Positions 1-64,000 of a DNA stretch of 64,000 nucleotides are shown piece by piece; positions within the stretch are counted from its first letter, which is position 1, and every line of letters starts with the position of its first letter. The DNA comes from a phage, in the NCBI GenBank assembly GCA_014435945.1, contig GCA_014435945.1_4088.1, one strand, 5' to 3'. The notes beneath the pieces were generated by a model that was not told where the DNA came from, made no database searches, and saw only the letters and a list, made by a program, of their open reading frames with translations. The translations under genes and the position numbers were made by a program.

Positions 1-2385
<2,385 letters not shown>

Positions 2386-2462
2386 AATCTTATTGTTATT
2401 TTTATAAAGTATTTACCCAAATTTACGTTTTTTTGATAGTTTATATGGAGTTAAAGTAATAA

Positions 2463-3771
<1,309 letters not shown>

Positions 3772-3793
3772 AGTGTAATAATCAGTCGAGGGA

Positions 3794-5137
3794 ATGATGA
3801 GTAAAATCAAGCTTACGGATAAGCAACAAGAAATTTTTGATAATTTTGTAGATCGTGTTTATAATTATGCAGGTAAAACTATATCTGTACTGTCAGCACC
3901 AGCGGGTACAGGTAAAACTTTCACTACTGCTGAGATTGTTAAAGCACTATGTAAAAATTACAATATTGCAGTAACATCGCCAACACACAAGGCAAACTCT
4001 GTTATTCGCAATATGCTAATCAACAATGCTGGGTTAACTAAAGAAGATGCACAGGTTAGTACTATTCACTCATTTCTAGGTTTAAAACTAGTATATGAAA
4101 AGAATCGTCAAGTACTGAAGCATGACCCACAAAGTAAAGTTAGTAATACTAATGTTGATATTCTAATTGTCGATGAATGTAGTATGATTTCAGAAGAACT
4201 GTTTCAACACATTCAGGATCAATTGTGGCGTGTTCGCCGAGCGGTTTTATTCATCGGTGATCGCTGTCAGTTGCCTCCAGTTGAATCAGAAGGAACAATA
4301 GGAGAAACTAAGCTTTCCCCTACTTTTGATGTTCCAGTACAATATGAATTAACAGAAGTTTTACGTCAAGCGTTGGATAACCCTATACTTGCAATTGCAA
4401 CTGCAATTCGTGAGTGCATAGGTACTTCCAAGAACCCGTTTGATATTATGCACCAGACACATGGTTTGAGTACTATTACACCAATTGAAGATGAAGATCT
4501 TTTCTTGGAAGTTTACCGTGAATTTATTATGGAGAACAAAGGTTCAGCTAAGAAGATATTTGATTTTGTTAATGAAAATAAAATTTTGGCATACACTAAC
4601 TACCGTGTGAACTTGGCTAACATCTACATTCGTAGCCAATTGTTTGAAGTACCAGAGGAATTCACAAAAGGTGAACCGATTGTATTTGAAAGTATCACTG
4701 AGAACAGTCCATATGTGGTCCAGCAAATCATCCAATGTCCTGATGTGAAAACCGAAAGTTTCATGGGTATTGATTGTTGGCAATTCCGTTTACCAAATGG
4801 TAGCTACATCTTAGGTGTAGGGCCAGAAACGAGAATTGCAATGGAAACTAAACTTGATGAACTAGTTAAAAACATTGAGAAAAAAGAAATCAACCCATTG
4901 ACAAAGAAACCATATATGTGGCAAGATTACTATGTGATTAAAAACAAATTACATATTATCAACTATCCTTATGCAACAACTGTTCACAAATCACAAGGAA
5001 GTACATTCGATAACATCTGGTTTGATACTGATTTTATTGAGCGTATTGGCACTAATGATACAAAATGTAGAATCCTATATACTGCAATGACACGACCGCG
5101 TTATAATGTTATGTTGCGTCAAAATGCACGATTCTAA
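3794..5137 (+). CDS. dda: Dda-like SF1 DNA helicase
   Basis: Walker A SAPAGTGKT, DECSM motif, HKSQGSTFD and MTRPRY motifs as in T4 Dda/RecD-like helicases. Confidence 0.85.
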   Translation: MMSKIKLTDKQQEIFDNFVDRVYNYAGKTISVLSAPAGTGKTFTTAEIVKALCKNYNIAVTSPTHKANSVIRNMLINNAGLTKEDAQVSTIHSFLGLKLVYEKNRQVLKHDPQSKVSNTNVDILIVDECSMISEELFQHIQDQLWRVRRAVLFIGDRCQLPPVESEGTIGETKLSPTFDVPVQYELTEVLRQALDNPILAIATAIRECIGTSKNPFDIMHQTHGLSTITPIEDEDLFLEVYREFIMENKGSAKKIFDFVNENKILAYTNYRVNLANIYIRSQLFEVPEEFTKGEPIVFESITENSPYVVQQIIQCPDVKTESFMGIDCWQFRLPNGSYILGVGPETRIAMETKLDELVKNIEKKEINPLTKKPYMWQDYYVIKNKLHIINYPYATTVHKSQGSTFDNIWFDTDFIERIGTNDTKCRILYTAMTRPRYNVMLRQNARF

Positions 5138-5220
5138 TAGACTAAATGATATACACAAATAATTTTGATTCTTAACAATAAATAATCAAAAGTGTTTTGT
5201 ATTATGGAGAAGAATATACA

Positions 5221-5787
5221 ATGAACAATTTACTACAAGTATTCAAAATTGAAGTTGCAGGGACAAATCTAGATAATATTCCTTATTATATGTATGAAGA
5301 TTATGATTCATCTTCCCCAACAACTGCACCAACCGACCAACAAACAATTGACAAGTCTGTAGCACTACTACGTTACCTACAGGTTACACGTCTACTATCA
5401 ACTTATTCTGTCCCAGTGTATTGTACTGTTGAATTTGCTACCCCAGGCACAGCAGCAACTATTCCAACTGGTGCAACCATCAATGTTGGTTATATCAGCT
5501 ACGAGCCATTCCTAAGCACTCTAAGTGTTGAAGAACAAGCTGCACTAACCACTGTTGATCTTAAAACTGCTAAAGCAGCAGAAGTTATTCAAGAGTTGCT
5601 AAACGAATCCCTAAAAGGTGACGGTACTAACGCAATTGAGAATGAAGAAATTTCTGTACAGAAAACAATCCAACGTGATAAAGATGCACTATCTACCACC
5701 ACTGTTGATTTCATTGAGTACGAGAATGTGTACCTAAACGTACCTTCTATTACTGATGCTTCTGTAGTTTCTTACGTAAAATTATAA
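5221..5787 (+). CDS. hypothetical protein
   Basis: ORF with SD-like GGAGAA upstream of ATG 5221; ORF track 5197..5787. Confidence 0.5.
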   Translation: MNNLLQVFKIEVAGTNLDNIPYYMYEDYDSSSPTTAPTDQQTIDKSVALLRYLQVTRLLSTYSVPVYCTVEFATPGTAATIPTGATINVGYISYEPFLSTLSVEEQAALTTVDLKTAKAAEVIQELLNESLKGDGTNAIENEEISVQKTIQRDKDALSTTTVDFIEYENVYLNVPSITDASVVSYVKL

Positions 5788-5810
5788 TTTAACCACATGG
5801 AGTTCTTGAC

Positions 5811-6005
5811 ATGACTGACAAAACCTTTTATGATCGTATTATTGAAGACAAGGGTGTTTTCGATAAAGTTGTTTATGACTTAGAACTTATGATCAAAGAC
5901 GCACCAAATCCACGCGTGCGTACTCAAGCAGAGTTTGCTAAAACTTATCTAGTGCAAGTTCAAGCAATCTGTGAAGCAATTAAAAAACATAATGATAGTG
6001 CTTGA
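5811..6005 (+). CDS. hypothetical protein
   Basis: 64-aa ORF. Confidence 0.4.
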   Translation: MTDKTFYDRIIEDKGVFDKVVYDLELMIKDAPNPRVRTQAEFAKTYLVQVQAICEAIKKHNDSA

Positions 6006-7156: not shown

Positions 7157-9317
<2,161 letters not shown>

Positions 9318-10118: not shown

Positions 10119-10150
10119 TCGGGGCATTTAATGTCCCGATATTTTTTTTT
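10119..10150 (+). terminator. intrinsic terminator
   Basis: short GC stem followed by T9. Confidence 0.5.
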
Positions 10151-10213
10151 GAGACAAACAAAGCATTGATGATACAATGTTGCATGACAAAGAGACATTA
10201 AAAAGGAATTCAA

Positions 10214-13683: not shown

Positions 13684-13729
13684 TATAAATAATCTATAGA
13701 TAATGGTAGCTTGGCTATGGAGAATTATA

Positions 13730-16126
13730 ATGACAACTTTTACCCCTAGATGGGATATAAAAGCCGATGCTCGATATATACAAGAAGGACAAGACATTCT
13801 TGTGCGTTTGAGTATCAACAAAGAAACCACAACGGATGATAGTTATATACTTAATGAAAACGAATACTTAGAGATGATTCTAACTATTCAGGGTTTGGAC
13901 AGTTCTGATGCAGTATTTCAACCAGAAGATCACTACGCAGTGTATGTTGGAAATGATGAATCTAATCTCACACCTATATCATCAGGTATTACTGGTAACA
14001 AGTTGATTAATGGTAAGCACAAATGTAAAATTGATAAAACTCAATTTGATCTATCGGCAAGCACTAATACCGAAGATGTTTATTTTATTAAATTGCATTG
14101 TAAAGATGATGGTACATTTAACAACTCTGAACAGATTAACTTTTATCTTCAAGCAGTAAATGTTATGTACTATGGTAACATTTCCCCTAGTGGTGAAATT
14201 GGTTCAAATGAAGTAACAATTGAATATGATAGTCAGGAAGTGTGGGTTACTCCTGGAATCGAAATCGGTGATGATGACAAATTATATTGTATTGGCGATA
14301 TTGAATACGGTTCCAACAGTACTTTATTTGTACAGGGATTTGGTCGCCGTCGTCCATTTATTTTAGGAACTGATACATCAACAGACCTATCTCCTAGAGT
14401 ATTTTATCCAGCGTATCGTCTACTCGATATGACCCCAGCAGAAGTTCCTGCTCGCCACATTACTGATGATTATGCAATCCTACGTCCTATTGATAATATA
14501 TGGCCTGTATTTGGTATTAATAAAGAAATTAAGGTTAATATTCAAACTAGCTCTGGGGAGTTACTAGATTCAGGATTGGTTTTCAACCCAAATGGACAAT
14601 TTCTGCAAACATTCCTATATGACTCTGATGCATGTGATGCATATTTCAAAGTTGAAATTGTTGATATTTTGAGTACATATAGTTATGACACTGACCGCTT
14701 CGCTATAAACCAACGTTTCAAAGCATATCAAATGTGGGTATGTCCAGACAATGTAGATGGTATATACGCTGATGGTGATAAACCTTTACCTAATCATTTG
14801 TATCAGTTGAAAGATAACGTTGTATATCCATATGTAATCTCTGGTGAATATGATCTAGGTGAAACAAAGCCAGTGTTTAAAAGTTCAGATTGGATTGATT
14901 TAGGATATTATGATTCAAGCTTAGGTGAGAATATTATAGGTGAAGAGAAGATGTTCCGTGTTCTAGTGAACGCAGAAGAAGGAAACTCAATAGACTTCAC
15001 AACTGATAGTGATTTAGGTAGTATTCATGTGGGTGAATATTTCGGTCACAGTACTTATCCACAAATACAAACTACCAGTACTAATCAGGTATCTTATGTA
15101 TTAGATGGTGGACCTGATGATATTCGCAAATATGGTTTGGACCTCACCGCAGATGGGTTCTTGGTCGGGACGGCATATGCAAAAAGTTTAGATTTCAGTG
15201 CAAATGATGATATAAATTTAGAATTCAACATCAAAGCATATGACACTGAAGGTGGTGTTGCGTCCAAGTTATTTAAACTTAAAATTGTACGTGGTTTTGG
15301 ACAAAACTACTTAAGTGCACATATTGTACCTTCTGTTTATTTTGAACGTGAATGGTTTAAGTGTATTAGTACACCATCATTTACAAATCAAGCTTTCCAT
15401 CGTCAATCAGATGATAGATACGGGTTACAAAAAGTACCACGTATTTTATTAAAAGAAAACTTTTTGAGTCAGAACTATACTTACACTACGTTGAGTGATA
15501 TTAAAAAAGTACTTAGGGAAAATATCATAAACCAAACTGGTGCAACTATACCTGATGGAAAATTTAGAATGGTAATGGGAAACTATAAAGTAATGTCAGC
15601 ACTTGACAACCAAGGTAACTTGCAGTATGATATATTATACCGTGAAGTTTTACCAGCAGGTTCATTGGTGTCAGTTTCTAAGAATCCAAGAAGTTACACG
15701 CAAATTGATAACGGAACACTCGGTGAAATATTTGGCTTGCGTCAAAATATTTTTGCAGCAATTGGCGAAGACACAACTAACCTTGTGAAAGACCCAACTG
15801 ATTTACAGAACCGTGGTTTGTATGTAGATGCTATACCTGGAATTTCTGATGAGATGCTAGATACTGTTCCTCGCTTCATGAATCACCCATACGAAGAAGA
15901 TGGAGTTAAAAAGAAATTCATGCCAATCATTCCAGTTGCATACTGTGCACCAGGAAAGGGTGAAGCATTCTTTAACACTTTACTTCAGAACAATGAACAT
16001 GGTAAGATGGTTGGTGTTGAGTTTGAAATCACAGGAGTTGAGTTTGGATTCTTTGCACATGAATTCGAAAACTACGTTCATGATACATTTTTGATTTCAT
16101 TACAAAACAGCAATTTAGGAGGATGA
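13730..16126 (+). CDS. large hypothetical protein
   Basis: ~800-aa ORF; a TATAAATA element about 45 nt upstream. Confidence 0.55.
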   Translation: MTTFTPRWDIKADARYIQEGQDILVRLSINKETTTDDSYILNENEYLEMILTIQGLDSSDAVFQPEDHYAVYVGNDESNLTPISSGITGNKLINGKHKCKIDKTQFDLSASTNTEDVYFIKLHCKDDGTFNNSEQINFYLQAVNVMYYGNISPSGEIGSNEVTIEYDSQEVWVTPGIEIGDDDKLYCIGDIEYGSNSTLFVQGFGRRRPFILGTDTSTDLSPRVFYPAYRLLDMTPAEVPARHITDDYAILRPIDNIWPVFGINKEIKVNIQTSSGELLDSGLVFNPNGQFLQTFLYDSDACDAYFKVEIVDILSTYSYDTDRFAINQRFKAYQMWVCPDNVDGIYADGDKPLPNHLYQLKDNVVYPYVISGEYDLGETKPVFKSSDWIDLGYYDSSLGENIIGEEKMFRVLVNAEEGNSIDFTTDSDLGSIHVGEYFGHSTYPQIQTTSTNQVSYVLDGGPDDIRKYGLDLTADGFLVGTAYAKSLDFSANDDINLEFNIKAYDTEGGVASKLFKLKIVRGFGQNYLSAHIVPSVYFEREWFKCISTPSFTNQAFHRQSDDRYGLQKVPRILLKENFLSQNYTYTTLSDIKKVLRENIINQTGATIPDGKFRMVMGNYKVMSALDNQGNLQYDILYREVLPAGSLVSVSKNPRSYTQIDNGTLGEIFGLRQNIFAAIGEDTTNLVKDPTDLQNRGLYVDAIPGISDEMLDTVPRFMNHPYEEDGVKKKFMPIIPVAYCAPGKGEAFFNTLLQNNEHGKMVGVEFEITGVEFGFFAHEFENYVHDTFLISLQNSNLGG

Positions 16127-57976: not shown

Positions 57977-58416
57977 CACTTTTGCTGATTCTAGGTTTAT
58001 TAGTGTCATATTTCATTTTTCTTAACATCTTCTCTGATGCATCACATTTTGCATATGCTTCAGCTATTGCAAAACACGAAGGGATAAAGAAGTATATTCC
58101 TGCATTGTTATTCTCATATATGTACCATCCAAGGTACTTTACACTAGGTGTGTTTGACAAGTATGTATACGACGAAAAAGCACTCAATGAAATTGAATAC
58201 TTTGTAAGAACTCATGCTAATAACAATCCAAAATCATTAATTAACTTTACTGATAATCGTAAACGTGTTAGTATTAGAAGTGACTTGTATCCTACCAGTC
58301 ACTTTCATCTAGGCGATTGTAGTGTGTACAGAGTTAGATACGAAAACTTACTGTTACCACCATCACATATAAGATACATAGAAAAATACTTGTTGAAATG
58401 TGTTGACTCCAAATAG
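57973..58416 (+). CDS. membrane-anchored protein
   Basis: N-terminal hydrophobic helix. Confidence 0.45.
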   Translation: MTLLLILGLLVSYFIFLNIFSDASHFAYASAIAKHEGIKKYIPALLFSYMYHPRYFTLGVFDKYVYDEKALNEIEYFVRTHANNNPKSLINFTDNRKRVSIRSDLYPTSHFHLGDCSVYRVRYENLLLPPSHIRYIEKYLLKCVDSK

Positions 58417-58469
58417 TAAATGGCAGTATAATATCTTCGTACCGCAATAACTGACAAGAGGATTTAACG

Positions 58470-58928
58470 ATGGACGTATTAGCTACTCAATTCAAACGCA
58501 ACGCAGAAGAACGTGAAGGTTACCTAAGTATCAGTGAAGTGGTTGAAGATGGATTCAAGCAGTACATTTTCAACAGTGCAATTAAACTGAAGCCAACAAA
58601 AGATTCACCGGATCGCAGCTTCACCAAGTGGATTGCATTCTGGGAAGAGTCACCAATTGCAATCGAAATGACTGTCATTACTACAGTACTGGAAACTGGT
58701 TACATCAAAGCAATTGTAGTTGATAAGAAAGTTCGTACTCTTGATGAAATCGGGACATACCCAGCACGTAACTCTAAAGTATTTGGGTGTTTAGTTGATG
58801 GTAAGTTTATGATTGAAAAAGATGCTAAGAACTATGTAATTGATAAACTACAAACCAGTGCTACTAAACAGGAAGTCGTAGACCAGAACGCAGTGGATGC
58901 TATTAAAAAGGCATGGGGACTGAAATAA
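58470..58928 (+). CDS. hypothetical protein
   Basis: 152-aa ORF. Confidence 0.5.
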   Translation: MDVLATQFKRNAEEREGYLSISEVVEDGFKQYIFNSAIKLKPTKDSPDRSFTKWIAFWEESPIAIEMTVITTVLETGYIKAIVVDKKVRTLDEIGTYPARNSKVFGCLVDGKFMIEKDAKNYVIDKLQTSATKQEVVDQNAVDAIKKAWGLK

Positions 58929-59350
58929 TGTTCACACTTAGCAATGCAAAGTATCTATTTCTTATTGCTATTATTGGTTGGGTTATGGCTCCAGTGCTTA
59001 ATGCACTGGGGTTTCCAGACGGACATAAACTTGTAAATGTTTCAGGTGTAATCCAGGGCATTTCATGGTATTCATTGATTATATTTTCTATATGTATTCA
59101 TACATTTGCACGTGATTGCCGCCGTCTGTTTTTTGTTAAAGTATTCGGTACTAAGAGATATAGTTTTGTGTTTACATTTATTTTAATACCATGTATTATC
59201 TATGCTTTTGTATTTGATTACTATACTTATCTGTGGGTGTGTGGTTCTATGTTTGTTATGTTGGAATATACAAGAACTGTTCAAAACTCATATGCTGATG
59301 AGTATTATGATCTTGAAGTTAAACGAAAATTAACGGAGCTAAACAAATGA
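58928..59350 (+). CDS. multi-pass membrane protein
   Basis: several hydrophobic helices. Confidence 0.45.
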   Translation: MFTLSNAKYLFLIAIIGWVMAPVLNALGFPDGHKLVNVSGVIQGISWYSLIIFSICIHTFARDCRRLFFVKVFGTKRYSFVFTFILIPCIIYAFVFDYYTYLWVCGSMFVMLEYTRTVQNSYADEYYDLEVKRKLTELNK

Positions 59351-59772
59351 GGGGATACAATAAGATTTGTATTTTTGTATTTTTAGTTTGTGCAATCAAT
59401 ACATTTGGATATTACTGTACTGAAAACAACATTTCATATGGTTTAAATCCTTTGTGGTTTACAATTGCCAATGTAGCACAAATTGGTATTGCTGTTATGT
59501 CTGCACTTATGTTCTGTCCAATTGTCACTATGGATACTGATCATGAAAGGCTTGGATTTATCCGTGATACTGGAGACGAACCTTACAGTAGATTGATTGT
59601 GTTGTATCCATTTATTGTTATTTTAGGTACTAACATCCAACTTGGGTCTTTATCTAATAGTGTTACTTCAGCAGCCATTACAGTCTTTGCATTCACATTT
59701 TTTATGGTACACAAATCAGTACTCAAATGGCACATCACAAAAATGGCAGAGAAAGGTACGGAAAACAGTTGA
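59347..59772 (+). CDS. multi-pass membrane protein
   Basis: several hydrophobic helices. Confidence 0.45.
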   Translation: MRGYNKICIFVFLVCAINTFGYYCTENNISYGLNPLWFTIANVAQIGIAVMSALMFCPIVTMDTDHERLGFIRDTGDEPYSRLIVLYPFIVILGTNIQLGSLSNSVTSAAITVFAFTFFMVHKSVLKWHITKMAEKGTENS

Positions 59773-59831
59773 CGTGAGTTATTGAGAGATATATAATTAT
59801 TACATCAAAACTGGGAAATGGTAAGGAACTT

Positions 59832-60083
59832 ATGAACATCGATAAGGTCAAAGAACTTAGTGAAGCACTAATTAAGAACGAAGAAGCTTGTGAAGAACTT
59901 CGCAGTACTATCAAAGTTGAGTACGCACGTCTTCAAGCTATGCTTCAGGAATCCGAATGGGTAGTAACTAAATCTATCGAAGCAATCTATAAGGATATCG
60001 AATCCCTTTTCAACAAGAAAAGTAAGATTGAATCTGATTCATACAATAAGCGTAAAGAATTAAATTCGGCACTCGGTATCTAA
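59832..60083 (+). CDS. hypothetical coiled-coil protein
   Basis: 83-aa ORF followed by terminator. Confidence 0.45.
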   Translation: MNIDKVKELSEALIKNEEACEELRSTIKVEYARLQAMLQESEWVVTKSIEAIYKDIESLFNKKSKIESDSYNKRKELNSALGI

Positions 60084-60108
60084 AAGTATTTGACTTAACC
60101 AATGACAT

Positions 60109-60135
60109 GGAGTACATTGTACTCCTACTTTATTC
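60109..60135 (+). terminator. hairpin (weak T-run), same stem as 26628
   Basis: GGAGTACATTGTACTCC. Confidence 0.4.
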
Positions 60136-60157
60136 AAAAGCCTAAAAGGAAAACATT

Positions 60158-60418
60158 ATGAAATCTATTCTCGTTGCTGTAAACCTGGTTGCTTCTCCAT
60201 CTTTCAACTTCAAACAAGTTGTTGCTGATAACCTGAAGAACATTTGCCCTAACGCTGAATTGACTTTCTGTGTGTTTGATTCAGAAAAAGTAACTAAAGT
60301 TGATCTAAACTATCTTTTGAACGAAGTACAAAGTATTTCTGGTGAAAGTAATTTGGAAGTACTGAATACGGTTGCTGATGACTATGATGATACACTGGTA
60401 ATTTCGGAGAAATTCTAA
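60158..60418 (+). CDS. hypothetical protein
   Basis: 86-aa ORF. Confidence 0.45.
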   Translation: MKSILVAVNLVASPSFNFKQVVADNLKNICPNAELTFCVFDSEKVTKVDLNYLLNEVQSISGESNLEVLNTVADDYDDTLVISEKF

Positions 60419-60423
60419 ATCCA

Positions 60424-60843
60424 ATGCTTAGATTTATACATTACTTAATCAGTAAGTTCTTTGGTTATTATACTATTGAAGGTAAAGCTACGCTTGCACA
60501 TAAAATCTTTGTAGCATTATGTGTGGGTGATTATGACGTATTGAATAAGTACTGTAAATCTAAAGCATGTATTGACATAATGGCACTTCGTATCTATGAG
60601 TGTCAGTTCAATAGATATAATTTTTACCAGTACAGATATGATAAAGATGATTTTGATAGCATTAAAATGCTAAAGAATTTATGTAATAATAAAAAGAATA
60701 TGCATATATCTGAATTTGTTGCATTGTATTTTTATTTAAAAAGTTCATTATACATGAATACACTTAAACGCTTCGATCCTGGAATTAATGTATTCAACGA
60801 TAAAGAATTTTATATCTATGATAAATTTTTAGATAAGGTTTAA
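60424..60843 (+). CDS. hypothetical protein
   Basis: 139-aa ORF. Confidence 0.45.
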   Translation: MLRFIHYLISKFFGYYTIEGKATLAHKIFVALCVGDYDVLNKYCKSKACIDIMALRIYECQFNRYNFYQYRYDKDDFDSIKMLKNLCNNKKNMHISEFVALYFYLKSSLYMNTLKRFDPGINVFNDKEFYIYDKFLDKV

Positions 60844-60844
60844 T

Positions 60845-61342
60845 ATGACGACTGTTTATATTGATAAACGCTTGGGAGTATTACTTACTGATTCAAAAGT
60901 GACATCAACTGAGCAACGTTCATTTTTGAACCTATTCCCGTTGAAGCCAAAACTTAGTTATGGTGTAGTTTCACAAAAAACATTGTATGTACACGACCGA
61001 CTGTTTAGTGCTTGCGGTGAGGTTAGTGAAATTAACAAAGTACTGAGATACTTGATTTCACAAGAGACTGTGATACCAGACCGCAAGGCGAGTTGTCACT
61101 GTGTTCTTGTGTCAAAAGATTACATCATTCACTTAATCGTTAATAAGGGTAAGTTTACCAAGAAGATTGATTATCTCCATAATGATTATACATTCTTTAT
61201 GGGTAGTGGTGGTGAATACATGCTTGATGCAGCAGTACATGAAGAGTGTAATACTCTTCTTGATAAGGTATTTGATACCTTCATGGATGTTCATAACCAT
61301 GATATCTATACCGATGATAATATTAATGTATACCGTTTTTGA
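60845..61342 (+). CDS. hypothetical protein
   Basis: 165-aa ORF. Confidence 0.45.
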   Translation: MTTVYIDKRLGVLLTDSKVTSTEQRSFLNLFPLKPKLSYGVVSQKTLYVHDRLFSACGEVSEINKVLRYLISQETVIPDRKASCHCVLVSKDYIIHLIVNKGKFTKKIDYLHNDYTFFMGSGGEYMLDAAVHEECNTLLDKVFDTFMDVHNHDIYTDDNINVYRF

Positions 61343-61364
61343 TTTCATTCATTAGGAGAAGTAA

Positions 61365-62330
61365 GTGAAAAAGCTTGATTTAAATGCAATTTCTGAAGAA
61401 GTACTGGATGAGTGTTTTGCTAGTGAAGAAGTCAACGTATTAGAGGCTCTTGATTCCGTCGAAGAAGAAGAACATGACGGTCACAAGTTTGAGAAACCAA
61501 AAACAGGTATCAGCTTAACTCGCCCTAAAGGGATAACGAATGAAATGCTCATCCAAGCAGTGCGTGATGGCATAGACGTTGAAAAGAACATTGACCTTTT
61601 GGTTCGCTACAACTATCCAATGGTAGTAAGTGTTGCACGTAAGTGTACATGTTTTATCCCATTTGAAGATAAGATTTCTTATGGTGTTGAAGGTTTAATG
61701 CGAGCAATTCATACGTTCGACACTACCAAAAATGTTAAGTTCATTACATATGCAACAACAACTGTGTACATGACAATCTATAACGAAAGTGCAGATGCTA
61801 ATTATCTAGTGCATTTCCCACGTTATATGAGTGTTAATAACATTTATGTGAAACGCTGTGTAGAAGAGTATCAAATGAAACATGGTAAATACCCAACTCC
61901 TGAGATGGTGTCAAAAGAGACTGGTATTGAGATTCAACACGTTAAGAATTGTCTAACTTACAATAACACTTATGTAGCATTGAATATGAAAATGAGTAAT
62001 GATTCAGAAAGTACATTATCTGACATTGTTACTTCAGTTGAACCTGATTACAACTTAGGCGTAGAAACTGTCAGTACCCCACTGGTACAAAGTATTGCAG
62101 AAATGATGAGTAACCTATCTGCCAAAGACCGTGAATTGATTGAACGTGTACATGGTATTGGTTCTTATTCTGAACCAGAAACGCTACGAGAAATCATTGA
62201 GAGTGGTTTTGAAGATGAGAAGGGTAAGGTCATGACTGCTCGTTCTTCATTGCACCGTAAGTACTCTGAAGCAATGGAACGACTGCGTAAGATGGTTAAG
62301 ACAAAAGGTTATGAGTTCGAAGATTTTTAA
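61365..62330 (+). CDS. sigma-70 family RNA polymerase sigma factor
   Basis: Region 2-like YGVEGLMRAIHTFD...KFITYATTTV and C-terminal region 4-like helix-turn-helix; GTG start after GGAGAAG SD. Confidence 0.6.
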   Translation: MKKLDLNAISEEVLDECFASEEVNVLEALDSVEEEEHDGHKFEKPKTGISLTRPKGITNEMLIQAVRDGIDVEKNIDLLVRYNYPMVVSVARKCTCFIPFEDKISYGVEGLMRAIHTFDTTKNVKFITYATTTVYMTIYNESADANYLVHFPRYMSVNNIYVKRCVEEYQMKHGKYPTPEMVSKETGIEIQHVKNCLTYNNTYVALNMKMSNDSESTLSDIVTSVEPDYNLGVETVSTPLVQSIAEMMSNLSAKDRELIERVHGIGSYSEPETLREIIESGFEDEKGKVMTARSSLHRKYSEAMERLRKMVKTKGYEFEDF

Positions 62331-62337
62331 GATTAAA

Positions 62338-62365
62338 GGGTTGACTTCTGTCAGCCCTTTTTTTA
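62338..62365 (+). terminator. intrinsic terminator after sigma factor gene
   Basis: GGGTTGAC / GTCAGCCC then TTTTTTT. Confidence 0.6.
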
Positions 62366-62898
62366 TGGGACAAATTTATTAATGGTGATACAATGATCTA
62401 TGTACAATCACAATGACAGTACTGGTACTGACAATCTTCCCCTACTTCACTTGAAAATGTAAAGGATAGATGAGCTTTTCATTGTAGCGAACAGCAAAAG
62501 AAACCCGTTAGATGTGGGCATAGTTTGAACCCCTCACGGCAATGCGGCTGTATAAAGAACCACGTTAGGATAGCTGGTGGTTCCTCGATAGACATATAAG
62601 GATAACACCTTACGAATTATCTAAGGGAGAGTTATCGAATTTTGTACAGGAAAGTTGCGTCCAAAATTTGAGTACTCACATTAAGTATTTGATTGCATAG
62701 ATACTTAATGAAGATACACTATGTTTAAAAGTGTAGACCGTCATATGAAACTGAAGTAGAGAGAAACAGGATGACCCGCTTTCGCACTCATTATGAGTAA
62801 TCTTCAATGCAATAGCTCTGATACCATCAGCGTCAAATTCCCCTCCATGTGGGGGGAAGAAAAATCCCTTCCTCAAATCCCGTCAATATTAAAAGTCC

Positions 62899-62927
62899 TT
62901 GACAGTTATGATTCATTCGCGTAGAAT
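62899..62927 (+). promoter_or_regulatory. sigma70-type promoter
   Basis: TTGACA-N17-TAGAAT. Confidence 0.55.
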
Positions 62928-62991
62928 ACGTAGTATTAGAAGCGAACAGACATCTCGAAGAGATGGATGATTAACCACTAAGGAATATCTA

Positions 62992-63201
62992 ATGAATTCA
63001 GTAATCTTTTTAATTATTGCTCTTTCACCACAATCTGGTGTACAAATCACCCCAATGAATTCAATGAATCAATGCATTGCAGTACGTGACAGTACGTATG
63101 AACAAGTAAACAGCGTTTCACTTAGAACAGTTGGTGAAGAATTAATGTGGTGTTACAATAGCAATACTAAAGAGAAACTAATTGTTGGACAAACTAAATG
63201 A
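62992..63201 (+). CDS. small membrane/secreted protein
   Basis: 69-aa ORF with N-terminal hydrophobic segment. Confidence 0.35.
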   Translation: MNSVIFLIIALSPQSGVQITPMNSMNQCIAVRDSTYEQVNSVSLRTVGEELMWCYNSNTKEKLIVGQTK

Positions 63202-63425
63202 GTTATGGTGTTCGTTTTGAGATTCGTTCTATTGTTATCAATGATGAGAAACAAGCATCGTTGGATGGCGATATACGAGAACTATATCTATCATGTATCC
63301 GTGCAAAATCTGAAGCAGATGCATTATCACAAATGATTGGTTTTAATTTCTTTCATGGATACTATTTGGTACGAGTTATCGAAGTTAAAAAAGTCACTTT
63401 TGAGTGTCTTGCAGGAGAAATATAA
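63198..63425 (+). CDS. hypothetical protein
   Basis: 75-aa ORF. Confidence 0.4.
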   Translation: MSYGVRFEIRSIVINDEKQASLDGDIRELYLSCIRAKSEADALSQMIGFNFFHGYYLVRVIEVKKVTFECLAGEI

Positions 63426-63426
63426 A

Positions 63427-64000
63427 ATGAGCACTATAGATGAATTGATTCGCCGGAATTCAAAATACTACGACCCATCAGAAATTGTTGGCAACATTAC
63501 TAAATCTGAGTTCGGCCCAAATACTCGAAAACTCATTCATGTAATGTCACGTGATGGCTTTAAATGTGATTGTTGTGGTGAATCCAATGTGGTATTCACT
63601 TTACATAAACACAGTACTAAAGACCGTTATAAATTCAGACCTTATGTACTTAAAGGGAAACGCCTTGTACGCATGACGTTAGACCATAATGTACTGGACT
63701 GTCTTCAGGGCGGTAATGATAAAGAGAACATGACTGCACTGTGTGAAGATTGTAACGCATTACGCCAGCATAAGTTCGCTGAGTACAGTGAGTTTAAACA
63801 CTGGTATCATAACGCTGATCGTTCTATCGAGCCTGACGTTAACTACTGCTTTATTGAGTATATTAAGAATGCTAAAGATACATACATTCTTAAATCAATG
63901 TCACCTATTACAGTGTTCCCTGAGAATCTATTCAGTACTATGCAGCGTGATTTTAAACGTGGTATCATGAATGCATTCAAACACTTAGACAAAGGTATCA
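63427..64000 (+). mobile_element. HNH endonuclease (3' end beyond window)
   Basis: Frame open from ATG 63427 to window end; CDCCGE...LDHNV...NMTALCEDCN HNH motif. Confidence 0.6.

What the first reader, a model, noticed from the sequence alone, without database searches (positions are those of the whole stretch)
61365..62330. Full-length sigma-70 family sigma factor alongside T4-like replication genes
The 321-aa protein has recognisable region 2-like and region 4-like segments, which is more than expected for a T4 gp55-type late factor. Together with the many near-consensus host-type promoters, this suggests a promoter hierarchy in which the phage supplies its own sigma for a later gene class.
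Basis: partly seen in the sequence, partly recalled or inferred. Interest (0 to 1): 0.5.

Follow-up and report, generated by a model that had tools for sequence, protein, structure and literature searches.

The report
Jumbo-phage RpoD-like sigma factor gene
The gene is a real sigma-70-family factor that is already annotated in this group of giant E. coli phages; comparison of genomes suggests it switches the host RNA polymerase to a phage-specific "middle" promoter class between the host-driven early genes and the T4-type late genes.

Summary
The ORF (61365-62330, +, 321 aa, GTG start with AGGAG SD) is real and is a sigma-70-family protein: Pfam regions 2 and 3 pass their cutoffs. Region 4 misses the Pfam model but aligns to cellular sigmas by profile-profile comparison (probability 100%, E 5e-47) once an 8-residue insert in the HTH turn is allowed. 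The window is 98.5% identical to jumbo coliphage fEgEco12 (121Q/RaK2 group), where this gene is already annotated and discussed, so it is not new. It is not the gp55-type late factor; the relative's genome has a separate one (outside this window). Residues invariant in my cellular comparator set, which I map from memory to sigma70 W434, Q437 and R588, are replaced throughout the clade. Three promoter classes exist: host-type TTGACA-N17-TATAAT (33 in the window, all on +), T4-late-type TAAATA before virion genes, and a distinct class tGrGACA-N13-TGn-TATAAT before replication genes, a tRNA, four non-coding repeats and the gp55-like gene. The -35 box of this class differs between lineages in step with the sigma's recognition helix. 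The best reading is a three-step relay (host sigma70, then this sigma, then gp55-like). The assignment of this sigma to the middle class is inferred, not shown.

The parts
61365..62330 (+). RpoD-like sigma factor gene (321 aa, GTG start, TAA stop)
   Evidence: ORF; Pfam r2 and r3; NCBIfam; PHROG 351; 98.5-99.4% identical to proteins annotated 'RNA polymerase sigma factor' in the closest phage records such as WPEC3, WPEC5 and BF17
61354..61358 (+). Shine-Dalgarno AGGAG, 6 nt before the GTG
   Evidence: sequence
61365..61418 (+). Clade-specific acidic N-terminal motif (aa 1-18, MKKLDLNxIxEEVLDECF), followed by a variable acidic linker to about aa 50
   Evidence: invariant L6, L14, D15 and F18 in A1; low pLDDT; absent from a few distant clade members
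61599..61787 (+). Sigma region 2 (aa 79-141), including KCTCxIPFEDK and YATTTVYMTIYN in place of the cellular YATWWIRQAIxR
   Evidence: Pfam PF04542; alignments
61848..62036 (+). Sigma region 3 (aa 162-224)
   Evidence: Pfam PF04539
62082..62303 (+). Sigma region 4 (aa 240-313): region 4.1, first HTH helix ETLREI, 8-9 residue insert SGFEDEKGK (about 62202-62228), and recognition helix TARSSLHRKYSEAMERLR (62235-62288)
   Evidence: hhalign; hmmsearch against PDB through the first HTH helix; AF2 helices 240-249, 253-263, 274-279 and 293-313 with pLDDT about 85
62335..62360 (+). Intrinsic terminator (11-bp stem, then a T run) 5 nt after the stop codon
   Evidence: sequence
59769..59797 (+). Class I (host sigma70-type) promoter TTGACG-17-TATAAT heading the five-gene operon that ends with the sigma gene
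   Evidence: no other + strand site with >=10/12 matches lies between it and the sigma gene
60845..61342 (+). Co-conserved upstream partner gene (165 aa, starts MTTVYIDK, invariant CHC and GSG motifs); identity as an HslV-like peptidase is unproven
   Evidence: adjacency with the sigma gene conserved in 121Q, PBECO4, RaK2, K64-1, Muenster, phiKp_21 and PHA46; PHROG 1040 at only 2.7e-6; no Pfam, NCBIfam or PDB hit, and hhalign vs HslV 7%
62366..62394 (+). Class II (candidate cognate) promoter TGGGACA-N13-TGA-TACAAT just after the sigma terminator
10150..10178 (+). Class II promoter TGAGACA-N13-TGA-TACAAT, 35 nt before the topoisomerase II large subunit gene (10214)
46027..46055 (+). Class II promoter TGGGACA-N13-TGA-TATAAT, 10 nt before tRNA-Arg (46065)
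40813..40841 (+). Class II promoter TGGGACA-N13-TGA-TATAAT among the small early-region genes

Best explanation
The gene encodes a phage sigma factor of the sigma-70 family (sigma2-sigma3-sigma4 plus a clade-specific acidic N-terminal extension). It belongs to the RpoD-like sigma clade of 121Q/RaK2/CBB-type jumbo myophages. Proposed mechanism:

(1) Host E-sigma70 transcribes the gene early from a host-type promoter (59769), as the last gene of a five-gene operon closed by a strong terminator. The sequence features are shown; the timing is inferred.

(2) The protein binds host core RNA polymerase. This is inferred from homology of regions 2.1-2.2 and 4.

(3) The hybrid holoenzyme recognises a phage-specific middle promoter class, tG(G/A)GACA-N13-TGn-TATAAT. 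The -35 box would be read by the re-tooled region 4.2 helix: R293/S294/H297/R298 occupy the positions of sigma70 R584/E585/R588/Q589, after an 8-residue insert in the HTH turn. This step is inferred from co-variation across lineages.

(4) That class drives replication and recombination genes (topoisomerase II, clamp, gp32, primase, exonuclease), a tRNA, four non-coding repeat elements and the gene for the separate gp55-like late factor. The gp55-like factor would then read T4-type TATAAATA promoters in front of virion genes. The promoter-gene associations are shown; the regulators are inferred.

The overall picture is a three-step relay: host sigma70, then the phage RpoD-like sigma, then the gp55-like factor.
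For: Family membership.

Separate gp55-like factor.

Early-type expression signals.

Altered DNA-contact residues: columns invariant in 22 cellular comparators (second W of YATWW, the Q of IRQ, the R of RIRQ) are T, M and H here, and no clade member has the Trp pair.

Class II promoters: 5 exact GRGACR-N16-TAYAAT sites in the window, all on +, against 0.12 expected, with 0 of 100 shuffles reaching 5. There are 24 + strand sites in the relative's genome; 14.7% of GrGAC words carry a correctly spaced -10 box, against 1-4% for control words. Positions I did not select on are strongly biased: T -35 14/21, T -15 17/21, G -14 20/21, A or C only at -13. Class I has TG at -15/-14 in only 20/63 sites.

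Gene association: gp55-like, clamp, gp32 (two sites), primase, exonuclease, topoisomerase II, tRNA-Arg and all four ncRNA-like repeats.

Co-variation: the -35 box upstream of orthologous middle genes is TGrGACA in fEgEco12, 121Q and Munch, TGrAACg in CBB and Yen9-04, and TGAACrA in RaK2, while the -10 box stays TATAAT. The motif-by-genome matrix is diagonal (+7/0/0; 0/+5/0; +1/+1/+9). The recognition helix tracks the box: R-S-S-L/I-H-R (this phage, 121Q) and R-T-S-L-H-R (PHA46/Munch lineage, only about 30% identical over this C-terminal segment) go with TGGGACA; K-A-T-L-S-R (CBB, Yen9-04) with TGGAACG; R-G-T-L-H-Y (RaK2) with TGAACAA.

Class I -35 is TTGACA both here and in CBB (PMC5259590). 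The sigma evolves fast (59/40/37% identity) while the gp55-like factor is 95/73/76% identical.

Against: There is no direct evidence of core binding or promoter use, and no experiments exist in the literature I found.

Class II keeps a perfect TATAAT and a strongly conserved TGn, both hallmarks of host sigma70 recognition. The phage sigma has Y154/V157 at the positions I map, from memory of sigma70 numbering, to the extended -10 contacts H455/E458, and it lacks the Trp pair implicated in melting. Host sigma70 plus an unidentified phage activator could therefore explain class II equally well.

The co-variation rests on four lineages. Lineage-specific traits correlate to some degree without any causal link.

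Region 2.4 residues vary between lineages (YM vs RQ) although the -10 box does not.
Confidence: 0.55

Rival explanations
1. Sigma appropriation. Class II promoters are read by host sigma70, which recognises TGn-TATAAT, helped by an unidentified fast-evolving phage activator that binds the tGrGACA box, as MotA/AsiA do for T4 middle promoters. The RpoD-like sigma then has another, unidentified target set or role.
For: Class II has a perfect sigma70-type extended -10. The T4 precedent is from established knowledge. The phage sigma lacks the residues I map (from memory of sigma70 numbering) to H455/E458 and the W433/W434 pair.
Against: No MotA or AsiA homologue is annotated in the relative or found. 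The box identity tracks the sigma's own recognition helix in six phages of four lineages. No other orphan promoter motif was found for the sigma.
Confidence: 0.2
2. Sigma70 surrogate. The protein reads the same TTGACA-N17-TATAAT promoters as host sigma70 and sustains or boosts transcription of the roughly 120 near-consensus phage promoters, for example when host sigma70 is limiting or neutralised.
For: Class I promoters are extremely abundant (33 in the window, 121 genome-wide). The sigma2-sigma3-sigma4 architecture suits -35/-10 promoters. The closest cellular models are RpoD, RpoS and SigB.
Against: The base-contact positions that are invariant in cellular comparators are replaced. The recognition helix differs between phage lineages, while class I -35 is TTGACA both here and in CBB.
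Confidence: 0.15
3. Non-initiating competitor. The protein mainly sequesters host core polymerase or host factors to shut off host transcription, possibly controlled by the co-conserved upstream 165-aa protein, without directing a promoter class of its own.
For: The melting-associated Trp pair is lost clade-wide. A conserved partner gene sits immediately upstream. [quoted passage not shown]
Against: The DNA-binding HTH, the sigma3 domain and the region I map to the A-11 pocket (F118, D119, K122, K125, Y129; mapping from memory) are conserved across a clade that has otherwise diverged to about 26-30% identity. A pure decoy would not need them.
Confidence: 0.07

Closest known systems
RpoD-like sigma factors of 121Q/PBECO4/RaK2/CBB/GAP32-type ('group 2') jumbo phages (121Q gp167, RaK2 ORF244, CBB_513; PHROG 351)
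   Same: Same family and same genomic setting. The protein is 98.5-99.4% identical to the annotated sigma-factor genes of the closest phage records (for example WPEC3, WPEC5, BF17), 59% to 121Q gp167, about 40% to RaK2 and 37% to CBB. In CBB the gene also lies in an early block of small genes driven by RpoD-like promoters (PMC5259590). Iyer et al. 2021 describe group 2 jumbo phages as carrying both a minimal and an RpoD-like sigma.
   Different: Nothing material; it is a member. The published work only annotates these genes or says they 'likely' redirect host polymerase. None assigns a promoter class or reports experiments.
Bacterial group 1/2 sigma factors (RpoD, RpoS, actinobacterial SigB)
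   Same: They are the best-scoring cellular relatives. Regions 2.1-2.2, 3 and 4.1, the first HTH helix and the recognition helix all align. The C-terminal tail resembles that of RpoS (comparison with RpoS recalled from memory).
   Different: The protein fails the equivalog cutoffs (96 vs 354 bits; 81 vs 379). It has no region 1.1 or non-conserved region. YATWWIRQAIxR is replaced by YATTTVYMTIYN. The RIRQ R/Q become H/R. There is an 8-residue insert in the HTH turn, a CxC motif in region 2.1/2.2 and an acidic N-terminal motif.
Bacillus phage SPO1 gp28 and gp33/34 sigma cascade (host sigmaA, then gp28, then gp33/34)
   Same: It works in the way proposed here: an early, host-transcribed phage sigma redirects host core to middle promoters, one of whose products is the next sigma (established knowledge; also the abstract of PMC13401047).
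   Different: The host group is different and the sigmas are, from my own knowledge, much smaller and more divergent. No homology with gp28 was tested here. In the present phage the last step uses a T4 gp55-type factor.
T4 middle and late transcription (AsiA/MotA appropriation of sigma70; gp55/gp33/gp45 late system)
   Same: The same three temporal promoter classes are seen. The late class (TATAAATA) and the gp55-like factor are conserved. The middle class combines an extended -10 box with a non-sigma70 upstream box in front of replication genes.
   Different: T4 has no second sigma70-family sigma. It remodels host sigma70 with AsiA and MotA instead. No AsiA or MotA was found here. The upstream box sits at the -35 position (-35 to -29), whereas the T4 MotA box is centred at -30 (the T4 details are from my own knowledge).
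phiEco32 gp36 (phage ECF-like sigma for middle/late genes)
   Same: It is an E. coli phage that supplies its own sigma70-family factor to host core for later genes (established knowledge; cited in PMC7318152).
   Different: From my own knowledge gp36 is ECF-like, with only sigma2 and sigma4. The present protein has a sigma3 domain and is closest to group 1/2 sigmas.

Membership tests
Sigma-70 family (Pfam clan of Sigma70_r2/r3/r4) | Region 2 domain (core binding and -10 recognition) | tested here: met
   PF04542, 37.1 bits against a cutoff of 24, aa 79-141; aligned to solved sigma structures
Sigma-70 family (Pfam clan of Sigma70_r2/r3/r4) | Region 3 domain | tested here: met
   PF04539, 44 bits against a cutoff of 25.3, aa 162-224
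Sigma-70 family (Pfam clan of Sigma70_r2/r3/r4) | Region 4 HTH domain, tested by the Pfam Sigma70_r4 models | tested here: not met
   no r4 hit even at E<=10
Sigma-70 family (Pfam clan of Sigma70_r2/r3/r4) | Region 4 HTH domain, tested by profile-profile alignment and predicted fold | tested here: met
   hhalign of the clade against 22 cellular sigmas: probability 100%, E 5e-47, columns 53-315, with the recognition helix aligned after an 8-residue insert; hmmsearch against PDB through region 4.1 and the first HTH helix, 1.7e-26; four confident C-terminal helices in the AF2 model; Foldseek aligns about 270 columns to sigmaS, E 1.4e-10
Sigma-70 family (Pfam clan of Sigma70_r2/r3/r4) | Binds core RNA polymerase and confers promoter-specific initiation | not testable with these tools
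   requires biochemistry; no published experiment was found
Group 1/2 (RpoD/RpoS-type) sigma factors | Score above the NCBIfam equivalog cutoffs | tested here: not met
   RpoD_Cterm 96.1 vs 354 bits; rpoS_proteo 80.9 vs 378.7; SigB 82.9 vs 464
Group 1/2 (RpoD/RpoS-type) sigma factors | Conserved region 2.3/2.4 YATWWIRQAIxR and region 4.2 TRERIRQ contact residues | tested here: not met
   W, I, Q and R are invariant in the 22 cellular comparators. Here the sequences are YATTTVYMTIYN and TARSSLHR, and no clade member has the Trp pair
T4 gp55-type late sigma | Match to the gp55 family profiles (PHROG 234 / 12791) | tested here: not met
   This protein hits only PHROG 351. A different gene of the relative (g336, outside the window) hits PHROG 12791 at 1.4e-152 and PHROG 234 at 1.5e-16. 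BLASTP between the two proteins finds nothing better than E 0.059
ECF (group 4) sigma factors | Only sigma2 and sigma4, with no sigma3 domain | tested here: not met
   a sigma3 domain is present
Jumbo-phage RpoD-like sigma clade (PHROG 351; 121Q gp167 / RaK2 ORF244 / CBB_513) | Full-length homology including the clade motifs (N-terminal LDLN..EVLDECF, KCTCxIPFxDK, GFxDxKGK insert, HRKY helix) | tested here: met
   PHROG 351 at 3.9e-48 over aa 1-318; alignments A1 and A3; a discrete clade of about 20 clusters at 50% identity with E <= 1e-40, separated from cellular sigmas by a score gap
HslV / proteasome-beta Ntn peptidases (for the upstream partner 60845-61342, as annotated in fEgEco12) | Significant profile or fold match, plus Thr-1, Lys-33 and GSGG catalytic motifs | tested here: inconclusive
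   PHROG 1040 at only 2.7e-6. No Pfam, NCBIfam or PDB profile hit. AF2 pLDDT is 56 and Foldseek finds nothing significant. The invariant MTTV N-terminus and the GSG motif are suggestive

The most novel reading that the evidence does not exclude
The RpoD-like sigma is the dedicated middle-gene sigma of a three-sigma relay (host sigma70, then the phage sigma70-like factor, then the gp55-like factor). Its insert-bearing region 4.2 helix has co-evolved with lineage-specific -35 boxes (TGrGACA, TGrAACg, TGAACrA) across the RaK2-like jumbo phages. That would make the clade a natural series of matched sigma/promoter specificity pairs. A further, much less likely possibility is that the co-conserved upstream Thr-peptidase-like protein controls or processes this sigma's acidic N-terminal extension, in the way the spoIIGA-sigE pro-sigma operon works in B. 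subtilis.
Probability: 0.5. Interest if true: 0.55.

Novelty: already known. Interest (0 to 1): 0.38.

Why it matters
The gene itself is ordinary for this phage group. It is annotated in near-identical genomes, and comparative papers treat it as a hallmark of RNAP-less "group 2" jumbo phages.

What nobody has shown is what it reads. This analysis turns that into a directly testable proposal. It gives a defined middle promoter class, its regulon (which includes the late-sigma gene), and three or four natural sigma4-helix/-35-box pairs that can be swapped in vitro.

If confirmed, it would explain how phages related to T4 in their replication and late-transcription genes, but apparently lacking AsiA and MotA, organise middle transcription. 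It would also provide orthogonal sigma/promoter pairs that work with E. coli core polymerase, which is useful for synthetic biology.

Tried and rejected
1. Pfam Sigma70_r4 gave no hit even at E<=10. Region 4 had to be established by profile-profile alignment.

2. Plus/minus strand k-mer asymmetry over the window was swamped by coding bias.

3. De novo word enrichment in all upstream regions of the relative, and a mismatch-tolerant search on the unclassified ones, returned only SD sites, terminator tails, sigma70 boxes, extended -10 boxes and the late motif. Class II was found only after I inspected the promoters of individual middle genes, although its hexamers had already appeared in the -10-anchored scan.

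4. The literal CBB/GAP32 motif TGAAACG is not enriched in the window (7 on +, 6 on -). The local version of the box is different.

5. I looked for sub-classes within the class I promoters by genome region and found none, apart from the terminal-repeat variant GTACTTGCA-N18-TATAAT.

6. Identity of the upstream partner as HslV could not be confirmed. Pfam, NCBIfam, a PDB profile search, hhalign, and AF2 plus Foldseek were all negative or uninformative.

This is a weak negative.

8. Rfam found nothing for the non-coding repeat, at gathering score or at E<=1.

9. A literature search for experiments on this sigma clade found only annotations and reviews.
Full report

Yes. The ORF at 61365-62330 (+ strand, 321 aa, GTG start) is present as described. 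An AGGAG Shine-Dalgarno lies 6 nt upstream of the GTG, and the N-terminus MKKLDLN is conserved in all close homologues, so the start is sound.

Domain evidence:
- Pfam gives Sigma70_r2 (aa 79-141, 37.1 bits, cutoff 24) and Sigma70_r3 (aa 162-224, 44 bits, cutoff 25.3), but no region 4 hit even at E<=10.
- NCBIfam models for RpoD, SigB, RpoS, SigBFG and FliA all match at 1e-27 to 1e-12, and all fall far below their family cutoffs.
- PHROG 351 'RNA polymerase sigma factor' matches at 3.9e-48 over the whole protein.
- Solved sigma structures (Mtb SigB, SigA, RpoS, RpoD) are hit at 3.6e-17 with the single sequence and 1.7e-26 with the family profile.

**2. Where does the window come from, and is the gene known?**

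The window is 98-98.6% identical to roughly 350-385-kb jumbo coliphages (fEgEco12, vB_Ec-M-J, Turkey3, WPEC3 and others) and about 85% identical to 121Q/PBECO4.

The protein is 98.5-99.4% identical to genes annotated 'RNA polymerase sigma factor' in the closest records. It is 59% identical to 121Q gp167, about 40% to the RaK2/K64-1 protein, 33-37% to those of CBB and the Yersinia and Erwinia phages, and about 26% to Lak megaphage proteins.

The literature already covers this gene class:
- The CBB paper describes the orthologue in an early region driven by RpoD-like promoters, a separate gp55-like late factor, and three promoter types (PMC5259590).
- Iyer et al. [quoted passage not shown]
- Reviews say such sigmas 'likely' direct host core to phage promoters.
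- The papers on fEgEco12, Sharanji and phAPEC6 only annotate the gene.

I found no experiment on this clade. So the gene is known, and its target promoters are not.

**3. Anatomy of the protein**

An exhaustive profile search shows a discrete clade. About 20 clusters at 50% identity score E <= 1e-40. After a score gap come tens of thousands of ordinary sigma-70-family proteins, and most of those matches stop near position 277-280.

Clade alignments (A1; A3) show these features:
- a conserved acidic N-terminal motif, LDLNxIxEEVLDECF;
- the end of region 1.2 (P..TNE);
- a KCTCxIPFxDK motif in region 2.1/2.2;
- YAT(T/S/V)(T/S)xxx in place of YATWWIRQ, so that no member has the Trp pair;
- a GFxDxKGK insert before the last helix.

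Profile-profile comparison of the clade with 22 cellular sigmas gives probability 100% and E 5e-47 over columns 53-315. It places the recognition helix after an 8-residue insert in the HTH turn. The cellular consensus T-R-E-R-I-R-Q aligns to A292-R293-S294-S295-L296-H297-R298.

In the cellular comparator set the second Trp, the Ile, the Gln (IRQ) and the Arg (RIRQ) are invariant. In this protein they are T, V, M and H. The sigma70 residue numbers (W434, Q437, R584, E585, R588, Q589, H455, E458) come from my own knowledge of E. coli sigma70.

The AlphaFold model is moderate (pLDDT 65.7) but confident in sigma2, sigma3 and a four-helix sigma4. Foldseek aligns about 270 columns to sigmaS and sigmaA.

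Conclusion: the protein has a genuine sigma2-sigma3-sigma4 architecture. It is closest to group 1/2 sigmas but is not a member of them, and its DNA-reading residues have been replaced.

**4. It is not the T4-late factor**

The near-identical relative carries a second sigma gene, g336, next to the gp47/gp46-type nuclease genes. This lies outside the window. It matches PHROG 12791 'sigma factor for late transcription' at 1.4e-152 and the gp55 family PHROG 234 at 1.5e-16. Its homologues reach cyanophage gp55.

That late factor is 95% identical in 121Q and 73-80% identical in RaK2, CBB and the Yersinia phages. The RpoD-like sigma is far less conserved, at 59%, 40% and 37%.

**5. Expression context**

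The sigma gene is the last of five genes downstream of a host-type promoter (TTGACG-17-TATAAT at 59769). A strong terminator (62335-62360) follows it directly.

The window carries 33 promoters with >=11/12 matches to TTGACA-N16-18-TATAAT. All are on the + strand, against about 2.7 expected per strand. The relative has 121 such sites genome-wide, 113 on + and 8 on -.

The window's replication genes are T4-like: Dda-like helicase, topoisomerase II large and medium subunits, clamp loader and DHFR.

**6. Promoter classes**

I used the relative's 370 kb that I fetched, with my own gene calls and RBS-refined starts. Intergenic word enrichment recovered SD sites, terminators, sigma70 boxes and a T4-late-like word.

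*Late class.* [ACT]TAAATA lies 30-70 nt before the start codons of the sheath, tube, neck, fibre, baseplate, portal and capsid genes. It also precedes virion-protein genes inside the window (5178, 7176, 13685; 56628 on the - strand).

*No extra motif by unbiased search.* Word searches on the unexplained upstream regions found nothing further.

*Class II.* Inspecting the promoters of individual middle genes revealed a distinct class: tG(G/A)GACA, then 13 nt, then TGn, then TATAAT.
- In the window the exact pattern GRGACR-N16-TAYAAT occurs 5 times, all on +, against 0.12 expected (0 of 100 shuffles reach 5).
- Genome-wide there are 24 + strand sites. 14.7% of GrGAC words carry a correctly spaced -10 box, against 1-4% for control words.
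- Positions I did not select on are strongly biased (T -35, G -16, T -15, G -14, A or C at -13). Class I has TG at -15/-14 in only 32% of sites.
- The sites precede the gp55-like gene, the clamp, gp32 (two in tandem), primase, an exonuclease, topoisomerase II (window 10150), tRNA-Arg (window 46027) and all four copies of a repeated non-coding element, one of them just after the sigma terminator (window 62366).

Class II corresponds to the 'divergent RpoD-like' promoters (-35 TGAAACG) that the CBB/GAP32 authors found before DNA-synthesis genes and the gp55-like gene.

**7. Who reads class II?**

The intergenic region upstream of the gp55-like gene aligns across six phages. It contains two features:
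- An invariant TATTTATA, which is TATAAATA on the other strand. This is the T4 late consensus, and it serves the divergent virion gene.
- The class II promoter at a fixed position. Its -10 box is invariant, but its -35 box depends on the lineage: TGGGACA (fEgEco12, 121Q, Munch), TGGAACG (CBB, Yen9-04) and TGAATAA (RaK2).

Orthologous middle genes in 50-kb replication modules show the same lineage-specific consensus boxes: TGrGACA, TGrAACg and TGAACrA. A motif-by-genome matrix is diagonal, and the sites are confined to the coding strand.

The sigma's recognition helix tracks the box:

| Phages | Recognition helix | Box |
|---|---|---|
| This phage, 121Q | R-S-S-(L/I)-H-R | TGGGACA |
| PHA46/Munch lineage | R-T-S-L-H-R | TGGGACA |
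| CBB, Yen9-04 | K-A-T-L-S-R | TGGAACG |
| RaK2 | R-G-T-L-H-Y | TGAACAA |

The PHA46/Munch case was a prediction made before I looked, and it is only about 30% identical to this phage over the C-terminal segment. In Munch most boxes sit one nucleotide further upstream. I treat PHA46 and Munch as one lineage because their hits have identical scores.

Class I -35 boxes are TTGACA both here and in CBB. I assume that host sigma70 region 4.2 is essentially invariant among these enterobacterial hosts; that is my own knowledge and was not tested here.

These results favour a phage-encoded, fast-evolving reader of the box, and the RpoD-like sigma is the obvious candidate. They do not exclude host sigma70 plus an unidentified activator. 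The conserved TGn-TATAAT, and the absence of the H455/E458 and Trp-pair equivalents in the phage sigma, keep that rival alive.

**8. Mechanism and confidence**

- Shown: domain architecture, replaced contact residues, early-type expression signals, three promoter classes with their gene associations, and helix-box co-variation.
- Inferred: core binding, timing, and the assignment of class II to this sigma.

| Claim | Confidence |
|---|---|
| It is a functional sigma-70-family factor acting with host core polymerase | about 0.9 |
| It is the class II (middle) sigma of a relay: host sigma70, then this sigma, then gp55-like | about 0.55 |
| Rival: sigma70 appropriation by an unknown activator | about 0.2 |
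| Rival: sigma70 surrogate at class I promoters | about 0.15 |
| Rival: non-initiating competitor | about 0.07 |

**9. A conserved partner**

The 165-aa gene immediately upstream (60845-61342) keeps its position next to the sigma gene in Asteriusvirus, in the RaK2 group and in the PHA46 lineage. It lies within 0.3-0.5 kb in EJP2 and in Erwinia phage Hallingskeid, down to 29% identity.

It is annotated 'HslV' in fEgEco12. It begins MTTV and has invariant GSG and CHC motifs. However, apart from a weak PHROG 1040 match (2.7e-6), the profile, structure-database and fold tests I could run gave no support. The pairing is solid. The biochemistry is open.

**10. Verdict**

The gene is already known by annotation and in the comparative literature, so its novelty is low. 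The added value here is a concrete, testable regulon and a specificity hypothesis. Interest is moderate to low at 0.38.

Noticed in passing
window 62361-62990 (element about 62441-62681); copies in fEgEco12 at 59916-60170, 110671-110931 and 195789-195966 (L004, L005, L006): A 630-bp stretch after the sigma terminator has no ORF or annotation. It contains a ~240-bp element repeated four times in the genome (73-79% identity), always in annotation gaps, and each copy lies 60-70 nt downstream of a class II promoter. RNAalifold on the four copies predicts 35 pairs, 9 of them with compensatory changes. There is no Rfam match at gathering score or at E<=1. It is a candidate family of phage middle-expressed non-coding RNAs.
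   Followed up: partly
whole window (153 copies of AGTACT); fEgEco12 genome; RaK2 locus L009; CBB locus L010: The palindrome AGTACT is 8-fold over-represented (969 vs 119 expected in 353 kb; 153 vs 21.5 in the window), and CAGTACTG about 57-fold (218 vs 3.8). It occurs in all three reading frames, is enriched in intergenic DNA, and is densest in the terminal repeat. It appears in promoter spacers and terminator stems. It is also enriched in the RaK2 (21 vs 2.6) and CBB (20 vs 2.7) loci, so the feature looks clade-wide. No paper containing both 'AGTACT' and 'jumbo' was found.
   Followed up: partly
fEgEco12 genome, first 353 kb: Several 6-bp palindromes are completely absent (CGATCG, CCATGG, AGGCCT, AGCGCT and ACCGGT, about 36 expected each; CGCGCG, CCGCGG and CCCGGG, about 11 expected each). 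GATC is at half its expected frequency. This is consistent with restriction-site avoidance.
   Followed up: no
window 60845-61342 (+): A 165-aa gene is co-conserved immediately upstream of the sigma gene across several lineages. It has an invariant MTTVY N-terminus, a CHC motif (C84-H85-C86) and a GSG motif. The sigma itself carries a near-invariant CxC (C94, C96). The 'HslV' annotation in fEgEco12 and Turkey3 is not supported by Pfam, NCBIfam, a PDB profile search, hhalign or a fold search. It may be a regulator or partner of the sigma.
   Followed up: partly
window 46065-50038 (+): A tRNA cluster: Arg(tct), a long-arm Ser called with the unusual anticodon 'act', Met(cat), Asn(gtt), and three tandem tRNA-Thr(tgt) at 80-nt spacing. 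tRNA-Arg sits 10 nt downstream of a class II promoter (46027-46055).
   Followed up: no
fEgEco12 record 1.6-20 kb (L003; terminal repeat, outside the window): About 19 copies of a stereotyped unit: an A-tract, GTACTTGCA, 18 nt, TATAAT, the conserved leader gttttacatc, and a small ORF. This is a fourth, repeat-confined promoter variant and probably an immediate-early class.
   Followed up: no
L006 40942-41075 and the orthologous regions L011-L015: The divergent intergenic region between the baseplate tail-tube-like gene (- strand) and the gp55-like gene (+ strand) is alignable across six phages. It carries a perfectly conserved TATAAATA late promoter for the - strand gene, back-to-back with the class II promoter. 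The annotated start of fEgEco12 g336 is probably 33 codons too far upstream: the PHROG match begins at aa 36, and relatives start at the internal Met.
   Followed up: partly
window 5178-5184, 7176-7182 and 13685-13691 (+); 56628-56622 (-): T4-late-type ATAAATA boxes lie 30-55 nt before virion-protein genes that are interleaved with replication genes in the window (for example the 807-aa protein at 13703-16126 and the - strand structural gene near 56.6 kb). Late genes are therefore scattered rather than clustered.
   Followed up: partly
fEgEco12 record 330-349 kb (L008, outside the window): An array of about 14 paralogous - strand genes of roughly 370 aa ('chromosome condensation regulator' / DNA condensation protein). 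Most have a near-identical upstream segment, TTAAATATAGTATAATGAATAAAGGAGGGA, preceded by a CCAGTACT-containing hairpin.
   Followed up: no
window 58000-63992 vs Ecwhy_1 (MH791411.1) positions 1-5995: The fEgEco12 paper lists the sigma factor (Gp519) as absent from phage Ecwhy_1. However, Ecwhy_1 matches this region at 98.3% identity at the very start of its record and annotates 'similar to RNA polymerase sigma factor'. The reported absence looks like an artefact of where the record is opened.
   Followed up: no
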